This document shows positions 133 to 14,298 of a DNA stretch of 14,587 nt, in pieces. Position 1 is the first letter of the stretch. Every line of letters begins with the position of its first letter. The notes under the pieces are model-generated. The model had not been told where the DNA came from, made no database searches, and was given only the letters and a program-made list of their open reading frames with translations. The stretch comes from Octopus sinensis (taxonomy: Eukaryota): NCBI RefSeq assembly GCF_006345805.1, contig NW_021825702.1, positions 1-14,587 on the forward strand, read 5' to 3'. The translations under genes were made by a program, and so were the position numbers.

Positions 133-336
133 GTCAGTCGCCATGATAGATCGTTAGCCACTACGCACATTTTTTCTCTCCTTGTTTCCCTCCTTGTTTT
201 TTCTGTCTCCCCTTCTGTAGAAGAGCGCAGGCTCGAAACGTAAAAGACTTTTTCTATTCCTGAGCGTTATACTAATACATCTGTTTGTATTGTACACCAC
301 CAGTCTTCGTTTTTTGTATTTTTCGTAAACTCTCCC
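133..336 (+). mobile_element. Penelope-like (PLE)-derived non-autonomous repeat, copy 1, with hammerhead-like motif, ending at (TA)n
   Basis: Aligns by eye with the reverse complement of 714-915 (cgccatgatagatcgttagc...gctcgaaa.gtaaaagactttttctatt...ttcgtaaact.tccc). Contains CTGTAGA-A-GAGC-gcag-GCTC-GAAA-C-GTA. Ends at (TA)n 337-356. PLE assignment is inferred from the motif. Confidence 0.65.
211..247 (+). ncRNA. Degenerate minimal type-I hammerhead ribozyme-like motif
   Basis: cctt-CTGTAGA-A-GAGC(gcag)GCTC-GAAA-C-GTA-aaaga: core-like box, 4-bp stem II, GAAA, NUH triplet GUA, imperfect stem I. The core has U where CUGANGA has A. Confidence 0.5.
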
Positions 337-714: not shown

Positions 715-915
715 GGGAAAGTTTACGAAAATAAGCAAAAGACGAAGGCAGGTGGAGTACAAACAAACAAATGTATTAGTATAGCCATCAGGAATAGAAA
801 TAGAAAAAGTCTTTTACATTTCGAGCCTTCGCTCTTCGACAGAAAGATACACAGAAAAAAACAAGTAGAGAAAAAAATGCGTGTAGGAGCTAACGATCTA
901 TCATGGCGTCCTGAC
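714..915 (-). mobile_element. PLE-derived repeat, copy 2 (inverted relative to 133-336)
   Basis: Reverse-complement homology to 133-336. The terminus abuts (TA)n 687-712. Confidence 0.65.
810..847 (-). ncRNA. Degenerate minimal type-I hammerhead ribozyme-like motif
   Basis: Minus strand: tcttt-CTGTCGA-A-GAGC(gaag)GCTC-GAAA-T-GTA-aaaga. Stem I tcttt/aaaga and stem II GAGC/GCTC both pair perfectly. Confidence 0.55.
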
Positions 916-3129: not shown

Positions 3130-3258
3130 GACCCCAGGACTTATTCTTTACAGTATAGTATTTATTCTATCGGCCTCTTTTGCTGAACCGCTAAGTTACG
3201 CAAACACACAAATACCGGTTGTCAAGCGATGGTGGGAGGACCACCACAGACACACAAA
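3130..3258 (-). mobile_element. SINE family A, 3' half in inverted orientation, tail missing
   Basis: Reverse complement matches about 11590-11720 (catcgcttgacaaccg...cgtaacttagcggttc...aagaataagtcctggggtc). Confidence 0.85.
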
Positions 3259-3326
3259 TACATACATACATACACACATACATACATACATGCATACATA
3301 CATACATACATACATACATACATACA

Positions 3327-3356
<30 letters not shown>
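3259..3356. repeat. (CATA)n microsatellite
   Basis: Directly visible. Confidence 0.95.
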
Positions 3357-3358
<2 letters not shown>

Positions 3359-3401
3359 ACAAAGTAAACTTGCAAGGTTACCGCACGAGTGAAACTATAT
3401 A

Positions 3402-3764
3402 GGAAAGAGGATTTGAAAATGCAGAGGTCTTTTAATTATTTTAAGTTCATCAAAAATCATAATTGTAAAGAAGCATACATATAGAAAGAATCATATTTAA
3501 GTATTTATAGAGAATTTATTTTACTACCTATCTTGAACAATTTCACGTAAACTGTTTAAACAAAAAGCCCCTCTTAACATTTTCTTATCATTGTCAAAGA
3601 CTGTATAACTGCATTTTAATACAATTATGATAATCACTTTTTAACACAACAAAGCTTATACAAAGCTTTACATTTTACTTTTGAAAATCTTTTATCAAAA
3701 AAGTGAAACCGGTCAAGTCAATAAACATCTTTAAAAGGCCTCAGCATTTTCAAATCCTCTTTCC
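3402..3764 (+). mobile_element. AT-rich element with 34-bp terminal inverted repeats flanked by TATATA; contains a decayed hammerhead-like motif (PLE-derived or MITE)
   Basis: 3402-3435 ggaaagaggatttgaaaatgcagaggtcttttaa versus the reverse complement of 3731-3764: 32/34 identical. TATATA lies outside both arms. GAAACCGGTC at 3705-3714. Confidence 0.75.
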
Positions 3765-3787
3765 TATATATATATATATATATATAT

Positions 3788-3868
3788 ACACCTGCCCAAG
3801 GTGCCACGCAGCGGGACTGAACCCGGAACCATGTGGTTGGCAAGCTCCCCCCTCCCATAGCCACTCCT
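3788..3868 (-). mobile_element. SINE family A head fragment
   Basis: Reverse complement of aggagtggct...ccacatggttccgggttcagtccc...gcgtggcaccttgggca. Confidence 0.85.
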
Positions 3869-8385: not shown

Positions 8386-8969
8386 TTCTTTTCTACTCTA
8401 GGCACAAGGCTCGATTTTTGGGGGCGGGGGGGGGAGTCGATTAGATCGATCCCAGTACGCAACTGGTACTTAATTTATCGACCTCGAAAGGATGAAAGGC
8501 AAAAGTGGACCTCGGCGGAATTTGAACTCAGAACGTAAAGACAGACGAAATACCTATTTCTTTACTACCCACAAGGGGCTAAACACAGAGAAGACAAACA
8601 AGGACAGACAAACGGATTAAGTCGATTATATCGACCCCAGTGCGTAACTGGTACTTATTTAATCGACCCCGAAAGGATGAAAGGCAAAGTCGACCTGGCT
8701 GGAATTTGAACTCAGAACATAGCGGCAGACGAAATACCTATTTCTTTACTACCCACAAGGGGCTAAACACAGAGAGGACAAACAAGGACAGACAAACGGA
8801 TTAAGTCGATTATATCGACCCCAGTGCGTAACTGGTACTTATTTAATCGACCCCGAAAGGATGAAAGGCAAAGTCGACCTCGGCGGAATTTGAACTCAGA
8901 ATGTAACGGCAGACGAAATACCGCTAAGCATTTTACCCGGTGCGCTTATGATTCTGCCAGCTCGCCGCT
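8386..8969 (-). mobile_element. SINE family C trimer (one head, three B-box/core units, 184-bp period)
   Basis: gaaatacc recurs at 8547, 8731 and 8915. Each unit has gagttcaaattcc and gcctttcatcctttc..ggtcgat..taagtaccag. One head gcggcgagctggcagaatc, tail ccttgtgcctagagtagaaaaga. Confidence 0.92.
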
Positions 8970-13520: not shown

Positions 13521-13900
13521 AGGAGTGATTTTGTGATTGCTTTGCACTCCAGTGCACAACGATTGTTGCAACAACACCTTTGTGTCTTTAATTACGGCAA
13601 TAAAACGGTTGCGGTGGGAGCAGGGCGGGGGGTGGGGCGTGGGGGCAGACGGTGAGAAGGGGTGGTGCTGGTGGTAGTATTTATAGTAACAGTAGCCACT
13701 ACTACTACTACTACTACTAGAAACGGTTTATTAGAATATGTAAATAATAATAGCCGTAATAATAATAATGATAATAATAATAATAATAATAAAATAATGG
13801 CAGTAATGATTTATTTTATTAGCCACAGGGGCATCAGATGAGGGTCACATTACAATAATAATAATATCATCATCATTATCATCTTCATCATTATTATGAA

Positions 13901-14298
13901 GGCGGCGAGCTGGCAGAACCGTTAGCAAGCCGGGCGAAATGCTTAGCGGCATTTCGTCTGTCTTTATGTTCTGAGTTCAAATTCCGCCGAGGTCGACTTT
14001 GCCTTTCATCCTTTCGAGGTCGATAAATTAAGTACCAGTTACGCACAGGGGTCGATATAATCGACTTAATCCGTTTGTCTGTCTTTGTTTGTGCCCTCTG
14101 TGTTTAGCCCCTTGTGGGTAGTAAAGAAATTTCGTCTGTCTTTATGTTCAGAGTTCAAATTCTGCCGAGGTCGACTTTGCCTTTCATCCCTTTCGGGGTC
14201 GATAAATTAAGTACCAGTTGCGTACTGAGATCGATCTAATCGACTGGCCCCCTCACCTCCTACCAAATTTCAGGCCTTGTACCTATAGTAGAAAGGAT
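13901..14298 (+). mobile_element. SINE family C dimer
   Basis: Head ggcggcgagctggcagaaccgttagc, B box 13973-13985, second unit restarting at ttcgtctgtc 14131 (first at 13953), tail cctatagtagaaaggattatt. ATT/CAT repeats on both sides. Confidence 0.93.

What the first reader, a model, noticed from the sequence alone, without database searches (positions are those of the whole stretch)
3396..3770. TIR-bounded element in TA repeats hiding a decayed PLE-type hammerhead
Seen: 34-bp inverted arms (32/34) flanked by TATATA, which looks like a MITE. Just inside the right arm is actt-TTGAAAA-tctttt(atc)aaaaaagt-GAAA-CCG-GTC-aagt (3677-3718): stem I actt/aagt, a core two changes from CTGAAGA, palindromic ACCGGT and a GUC triplet, followed by AATAAA at 3720. 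Its layout (hammerhead, short spacer, ctct..cc, (TA)n) parallels the otherwise dissimilar element at 133-336. Inference: a second TA-targeting Penelope-derived family whose inverted end copy mimics a DNA transposon, so some apparent MITEs here may be retroelements.
Basis: partly seen in the sequence, partly recalled or inferred. Interest (0 to 1): 0.7.

Follow-up and report, generated by a model that had tools for sequence, protein, structure and literature searches.

The report
Penelope retroelement stub mimicking a MITE
This 410-base insert looks like a small DNA transposon but is two back-to-back end pieces of a Penelope-type jumping gene, a known layout, and its hammerhead RNA motif is not decayed but a family-wide variant that likely still cuts when paired, though cutting is untested.

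Summary
The arms (32/34) and hammerhead letters are real, but this is not a MITE. Both internal junctions are unique in the 2.7-Gb genome. The family end runs about 38 bp past the left TATATA, and copies lead inward to an RT + GIY-YIG ORF of a Neptune-like Penelope-like element (PLE). The window copy is an antisense end with its tail, shortened by a 208-bp deletion, joined by 6-bp microhomology to a sense end without tail. Other two-armed copies have second arms of 37-318 bp, none with the tail (8 of 8). The core TTGANAA is not decay: 0 of 47 family copies have C3 or G8, it is the published U3-A8 covariation, and it persists with stem covariation in related families. Stem II opens with a U-U mismatch, also with natural precedent; I found no paper on the combination, but one key paper was unavailable. 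Cleavage is untested. This scan noted the same two-armed layout earlier on other DNA. New member of a known kind; interest 0.3.

The parts
3258..3357 (.). (ATAC)n/TA tract, left target flank; it is the internal microsatellite of an abundant SINE-like host repeat
3358..3395 (-). PLE 'tail' (about 38 bp), present on this arm only
   Evidence: shared by many copies; absent from the right arm
3396..3435 (-). Internal TATATA plus 34-bp remnant of the antisense family end (the apparent left TIR)
3433..3435 (.). Deletion junction, TAA microhomology; about 208 bp of the antisense arm, including its hammerhead, is missing
   Evidence: alignment to copy L017; junction unique in genome
3433..3517 (-). 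Rest of the antisense arm (inner pLTR sequence)
   Evidence: query bases 32-116 match the strand opposite to 111-364 in other copies
3512..3517 (.). Inversion junction, 6-bp microhomology GAATTT shared by both arms
   Evidence: junction unique in genome
3512..3770 (+). Sense arm: 5'-truncated 3' end (pLTR) of the PLE, stopping at the internal TATATA without tail
   Evidence: 78-91% identity to the 30 best loci; colinear with RT-EN ORF in L032
3677..3718 (+). Minimal type I hammerhead motif: U3-A8 core, U10.1-U11.1 mismatch, 5-bp stem II (3689-3703), palindromic stem III, predicted cut after 3714
3765..3788 (.). (TA)12 right target flank, then the downstream part of the host SINE-like repeat; about 75 bp of that repeat's middle is missing here
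   Evidence: middle part present in 42 of 43 host-repeat segments, some overlapping

Best explanation
The insert is two truncated, back-to-back copies of the 3' end of a Penelope-like retrotransposon family, likely made in one insertion into a TA microsatellite, and its 34-bp 'TIRs' are what an internal deletion left of a longer inverted arm. Shown: homology of both arms to the end of an RT + GIY-YIG element, tail on one arm only, microhomologies at both junctions, junctions unique in the genome, hammerhead core equal to the family majority. Inferred: the element's GIY-YIG nuclease nicked the TA tract, RT primed once from each side at the two family end points about 40 nt apart (one arm with tail, one without), both cDNAs stopped early and joined through GAATTT, and 208 bp of the left arm were lost by a template jump or a later deletion in the foldback. 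The U3-A8 hammerhead likely works as a weak, dimer- or protein-dependent self-cleaver in tandem transcripts of the master element; this lone old copy is likely inert.
For: ORF linkage: L032 runs RT, GIY-YIG, CA-rich spacer, hammerhead, end and tail in one direction; also L107, L109, L110, L111, L225, L242. A younger subfamily has a 776-codon open frame (L099; Pfam RVT_1 E 7.8e-8; homologues carry RVT_1 and often PF01541) with CX4CxxC linker and YIGQT; its ends are direct in L101 and inverted around the ORF in L103, L112, L113. Variable arms: 8 two-ended copies span 132-915 bp, second arm 37-318 bp, tail on second arm 0 of 8. Of 17 further two-ended copies, tail at one end 13, both 2, none 2. 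Hammerhead: core positions 42-46 of 47, N7 varies (A 33, T 12, G 2); U3-A8 motif downstream of the ORF in 8 of 20 more distant loci, 5 hits in 4.8 Mb shuffled; 9 of 12 pairs change on both sides, score 0.463 vs at most 0.233 when slid. Layout described in PMC8557442, PMC3846280, PMC11167929.
Against: The window copy itself has no ORF; the link is through homologous copies. No intact ORF was seen in the window's own old subfamily (L032 has stops and frameshifts; intact frames belong to a subfamily whose end is about 76% identical). Clade (Neptune vs Nematis) was not tested by a tree. The covariation set (15 rows) was hand-picked with a descriptor that required pairing, so one search is biased upward, and three rows are one column out of register in stem II. 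Position 10.1-11.1 is unpaired in 11 of 15 rows, against the conserved G10.1-C11.1 of PLE hammerheads. Predicted monomer and dimer folds do not form the full hammerhead for the window motif. Timing of the deletion and the two-priming model are not shown.
Confidence: 0.93

Rival explanations
1. A Tc1/mariner-type MITE with 34-bp TIRs and a TA target duplication.
For: 32/34 arms with TA outside and no ORF. Another copy has a similar 37-bp short arm (L228).
Against: Both junctions occur once in 2.7 Gb; most copies have one end only; the left end continues into a tail; arm lengths vary 37-318 bp; inverted ends flank RT + GIY-YIG.
Confidence: 0.02
2. PLE-derived, but the hammerhead is a non-catalytic structural signal (or a fossil) kept for RT or nuclease recognition of the pLTR end.
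For: U-U at 10.1-11.1, A/U-rich weak stems, no stable predicted fold. In Anolis PAc, hammerhead mutants did not affect insertion and the ribozyme cut only with protein (PMC11167929). Conservation between old and young subfamilies covers the hammerhead and everything downstream of it.
Against: Changes between families fall at tolerant sites (N7; H17 as C, U or A; paired stems) while U3, U4, G5, A6, A8, A9, G12-A15.1 and U16.1 hold; one relative (L185) has the same U3-A8 core with canonical G10.1-C11.1. U3-A8 and U10.1-U11.1 are reported in natural hammerheads (PMC3088659).
Confidence: 0.3
3. Two independent insertions of the same family landed head to head in one TA tract.
For: The family is abundant and favours TA tracts; the arms differ at 2 of 34 sites.
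Against: No TA tract or spacer between the arms, only a 6-bp microhomology; ends point outward with a one-sided tail in most two-armed copies; both mismatches are private changes in the right arm, as expected from ageing.
Confidence: 0.05

Closest known systems
Insertions of C-terminal EN+ Penelope-like elements, Neptune/Nematis type (Craig et al. 2021 PMC8557442, passages; Arkhipova et al. 2013 PMC3846280, passages)
   Same: RT followed by GIY-YIG, CX2-5CxxC linker, direct and inverted pLTRs, 5' truncation, 30-40 bp tail at one end, microsatellite targets, microhomology junctions and deletions.
   Different: New family; 1-2 kb CA- or TG-rich spacer between ORF and pLTR; this copy's inverted arm is cut down to 34 bp, giving a MITE look.
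Minimal PLE hammerheads, incl. the U3-A8 form of Schistosoma Cercyon (Cervera and de la Pena 2014, PMC4209133, parts 1-2 of 4 read)
   Same: Type I, short stem I, longer stem II, palindromic stem III implying dimers, U3-A8 covariation, located in the pLTR.
   Different: Lacks the conserved G10.1-C11.1 pair; stem II opens with U-U then C-G (or, read otherwise, a bulged U on both sides).
Natural hammerhead core variants (Perreault et al. 2011, PMC3088659, passages)
   Same: U3-A8 and U10.1-U11.1 are each reported in nature; U-U is stated to be the most active mispair at that position.
   Different: Here both occur together and across several related retroelement families; the passages read do not show the combination.
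PAc Poseidon element of Anolis (Frangieh et al. 2024, PMC11167929, passages and second part of main text)
   Same: Two RT start sites delimit the tail; protein extends both target strands; AT-rich targets.
   Different: PAc starts at sites not homologous to the target; here both family end points coincide with internal TA runs that match the target repeat.
Tc1/mariner-derived MITEs (recalled)
   Same: Short, non-coding, about 30-bp inverted ends, TA flanks.
   Different: No family of fixed two-armed copies, asymmetric ends, no transposase partner.

Membership tests
EN+ Penelope-like element | ORF with RT and C-terminal GIY-YIG endonuclease linked to this end | tested here: met
   L032 colinear; L099 RVT_1, YIGQT core, homologues with PF01541. 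Pfam itself did not call GIY-YIG on L099 or L032.
EN+ Penelope-like element | pLTR in direct and inverted arrangement around the ORF | tested here: met
   direct L101, L114; inverted L103, L112, L113
EN+ Penelope-like element | 30-40 bp tail at one end | tested here: met
   window 3358-3395
EN+ Penelope-like element | Variable 5' truncation and inversion points | tested here: met
Neptune clade | CX2-5CxxC linker before GIY-YIG (shared with Nematis) and two Cys plus two His around the core | tested here: met
   CX4CxxC at residue 646 of L099; RCEGC, HRQQ, GHLD
Neptune clade | Phylogenetic placement with named Neptune RTs | not tested
   no named reference set among the hits
Minimal type I hammerhead | Core 3-9, G12-A15.1, U16.1, H17 with a 3-8 pair | tested here: met
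   U3-A8 form, 42-46 of 47 per position
Minimal type I hammerhead | Stems I and II and palindromic stem III, with covariation | tested here: met
   (selected rows, biased upward)
Minimal type I hammerhead | G10.1-C11.1 pair | tested here: not met
   U-U in 10 of 15 rows, C-U in 1, A-U in 3, G-C in 1; natural exception reported
Minimal type I hammerhead | Self-cleavage | not testable with these tools
   only contigs were available
MITE | Many copies of fixed length with both TIRs | tested here: not met
MITE | Element bounded by TIRs and a target duplication | tested here: not met
   family sequence continues 38 bp beyond the left TATATA
MITE | TIRs shared with a transposase-coding element | tested here: not met
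   ends flank RT + GIY-YIG in the long loci examined; no genome-wide transposase search was made
Non-LTR retrozyme | Tandem non-coding monomers each with a hammerhead | tested here: not met
   ends lead to a coding element; only occasional two-copy tandems (L043, L064, L236)

The most novel reading that the evidence does not exclude
A lineage of Neptune-like PLEs carries an active hammerhead that combines two rare core variants (U3-A8 and U10.1-U11.1), and targets TA microsatellites because both of its RT start sites are internal UA runs that anneal to the nicked target, unlike the non-homologous priming shown for PAc. In 11 of 11 genome matches to the tail-ORF junction a (TA)4-5 run follows the tail, and TATATA precedes it.
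Probability: 0.3. Interest if true: 0.55.

Novelty: new member of a known kind. Interest (0 to 1): 0.3.

Why it matters
Practically, it shows how PLE stubs with deleted inverted arms can pass for TA-targeting MITEs, and that descriptors demanding CUGANGA or a paired 10.1-11.1 miss hundreds of hammerheads here (426 and 329 exact pattern matches). For ribozyme work it gives a natural series, within one genome, from G-C to U-U at 10.1-11.1 on a U3-A8 core. Intact ORFs of the young subfamily make target priming in a microsatellite-targeting Neptune-like element testable. The architecture itself is already described.

Tried and rejected
Rfam scan: no hammerhead model reached E 10 at the site. Monomer and homodimer folding did not give the full hammerhead for the window motif; uninformative for minimal PLE hammerheads. 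RNA evidence: no holder is on record as RNA; four contig sets laid on the young pLTR show no end pile-up and cannot show one. Pfam did not recognise the GIY-YIG domain; it rests on motifs and homologues. The first mapping run was swamped by TA repeats and was redone. MITE, retrozyme array and poly(A)-signal readings rejected as above. Literature: searches found no description of this family or of the combined core variant, nor of PLE stubs misread as MITEs (listing only). Lunse, Weinberg and Breaker (RNA Biol 14:1499, on PLE hammerhead variants) is not held, and the supplements of PMC4209133 and PMC3088659 were not read; any of these may already list the variant. bioRxiv 10.64898/2026.07.22.740005: part 1 of 5 read, background only. 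PMC6765202 and PMC6155905: passages only. That the genome is an octopus is my recollection from size and repeats, echoed by earlier notes, not tested.

Full report
Observation. The arms at 3402-3435 and 3731-3764 match at 32 of 34 bases with TATATA outside each. The hammerhead-like letters are at 3677-3718 as stated. A strict descriptor finds this one site in the window and none in 7.26 Mb of shuffled loci. Rfam has no hammerhead hit there.

The family. A search of the own genome (G000, 2.7 Gb) with 3402-3765 gave 1884 candidates, 40 scored. In the 30 loci fetched, copies share element bases 111-364 on one strand; bases 32-116 match the opposite strand just beyond, and bases 1-34 match only as the reverse of the same end. 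So the window copy is built from one family end used twice. Aligned to copy L017, the left arm reads tail, TATATA, 34 bp, a 208-bp gap at a TAA microhomology, then 85 bp more; it joins the sense arm through a 6-bp microhomology. Each junction, searched with one mismatch allowed, occurs once in the genome. The family end extends about 38 bp beyond the left TATATA, so that TATATA is internal sequence, not a target duplication.

What the end belongs to. Followed inward, copies pass through about 600 bp of AT-rich sequence and a CA-rich spacer. In L032 this leads to a broken ORF with RT motifs and a GIY-YIG domain on the same strand; L107, L109, L110, L111, L225 and L242 give the same link. The endonuclease piece retrieves 150 scored relatives of 15019 candidates. 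A younger subfamily has open frames up to 776 codons (L099), scored as RVT_1, with homologues carrying RVT_1 and often GIY-YIG PF01541, a CX4CxxC linker and a YIGQT core. Its end is about 76% identical to the old end, from the hammerhead onward. That end stands as a direct repeat before the ORF in L101 and inverted around it in L103, L112 and L113. The linker marks Neptune or Nematis type (PMC8557442, passages); no tree was built.

Arm lengths and tail. Among 24 loci picked by tail plus end (two overlap), 11 hold an opposite-strand piece; 8 of these reach the family end on the second arm, with arms of 37-318 bp and spans of 132-915 bp, and none of the 8 has the tail on that arm. Of 17 further two-ended copies chosen, the tail is on one end in 13, both in 2 (in L102 that arm runs on into the ORF start), neither in 2 (for three copies one end was read because the script missed it). 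Inverted 5' copies with a one-sided 30-40 bp tail and microhomology junctions are the described PLE pattern (PMC8557442; PMC3846280, passages). In Anolis PAc the tail lies between two RT start sites and the protein extends both target strands (PMC11167929).

The hammerhead. In 47 distinct copies anchored on downstream sequence, not on the core, the window letters are the majority at every core position (42-46 of 47), N7 varies (A 33, T 12, G 2) and none has C3 or G8. So the two 'changes' are the master's state: the U3-A8 covariation of the 3-8 pair, reported for Schistosoma PLEs (PMC4209133, parts 1-2) and other natural hammerheads (PMC3088659, passages). An exact pattern has 426 matches, control 0, mostly with N7 = C. 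The young subfamily changes H17 to U or A and one stem II pair to U-G. In 8 of 20 loci of other relatives (50-62% protein identity to L099, one 88%) a U3-A8 motif lies downstream of the ORF, one more sits inverted upstream, and shuffles give 5 hits in 4.8 Mb. These relatives change stem I, stem II and the palindrome while keeping pairing: on 15 hand-picked rows 9 of 12 pairs change on both sides, score 0.463 against at most 0.233 when slid; the rows were chosen with a pairing descriptor, so this overstates the case. A second pattern with a different stem II and the same flanking U's has 329 matches, control 0. Against a canonical ribozyme: 10.1-11.1 is U-U in 10 of 15 rows where PLE hammerheads usually have G-C; L185 has G-C in the same columns, which fixes the register. 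PMC3088659 reports natural U10.1-U11.1 and calls it the most active mispair. Folding programs do not produce the full hammerhead, and no RNA-end data were available.

Target. The insert lies in the internal microsatellite of an abundant SINE-like repeat; about 75 bp of that repeat's middle, present in 42 of 43 segments examined (some overlapping), is missing at the right junction. Both family end points coincide with internal TA runs: TATATA before the tail, and (TA)4-5 after it in 11 of 11 tail-ORF junction matches (L242 shows the same in the old subfamily). Annealing of the nicked target to these runs is my inference.

Comparison element 133-336. It is a separate abundant family (4043 candidates, 40 scored) with a C3-G8 core, U at position 6 and variable N7; 9 of 30 loci have an upstream, same-strand match to the L099 protein.

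Mechanism (inferred). Nicking of the TA tract, priming from both sides at the two end points, early termination, joining by microhomology, then or meanwhile loss of 208 bp from the left arm. The two arm mismatches are private to the right arm, in line with an old copy 86-91% identical to its closest relatives.

Verdict. A new family of a known kind; the MITE look is an accident of one deletion. Confidence in the PLE reading 0.93; that the motif is a true hammerhead homologue about 0.9; that the master's motif cleaves about 0.6. Earlier notes of this scan describe the same two-armed layout elsewhere. Interest 0.3.

Noticed in passing
window 211-250 (element at about 100-337) and a second copy at 715-908, minus strand: Hammerhead of another PLE family with U at core position 6 and variable N7, canonical G10.1-C11.1; linked to a distant RT/EN ORF in 9 of 30 loci.
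   Followed up: partly
window 8435-8922 and 13896-14130: 184-bp unit in 2.6 tandem copies, with an inverted match about 5 kb away; looks like copies of a dispersed repeat.
   Followed up: no
L099 4100-5700, L090, L091, L081 downstream of the ORF: The young subfamily has a TG/TA-rich spacer of about 1.3 kb after the ORF where the old subfamily has a CA-rich one: the 3' spacer is microsatellite-like and seems to have changed strand or been replaced.
   Followed up: no
L101 400-1700: A long reading frame begins just after the tail and upstream of the RT frame, so the full ORF is longer than 776 codons or there is an upstream ORF.
   Followed up: no
L112 5800-6325, runs X2 and X7: Loose contig ends over the hammerhead show runs of T-to-C changes, as antisense A-to-I hyper-editing of foldback RNA would give; run type is only a guess and no DNA control of the same individual.
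   Followed up: no
L014 and relatives, 290-430 bp from the 3' end: Two short repeats resembling degenerate hammerhead 5' halves (CTGATGA and TTGATGA) lie upstream of the main motif.
   Followed up: no
L185 2825-2881: Relative with the U3-A8 core and a canonical G10.1-C11.1 pair, a natural control for the U-U variant.
   Followed up: partly
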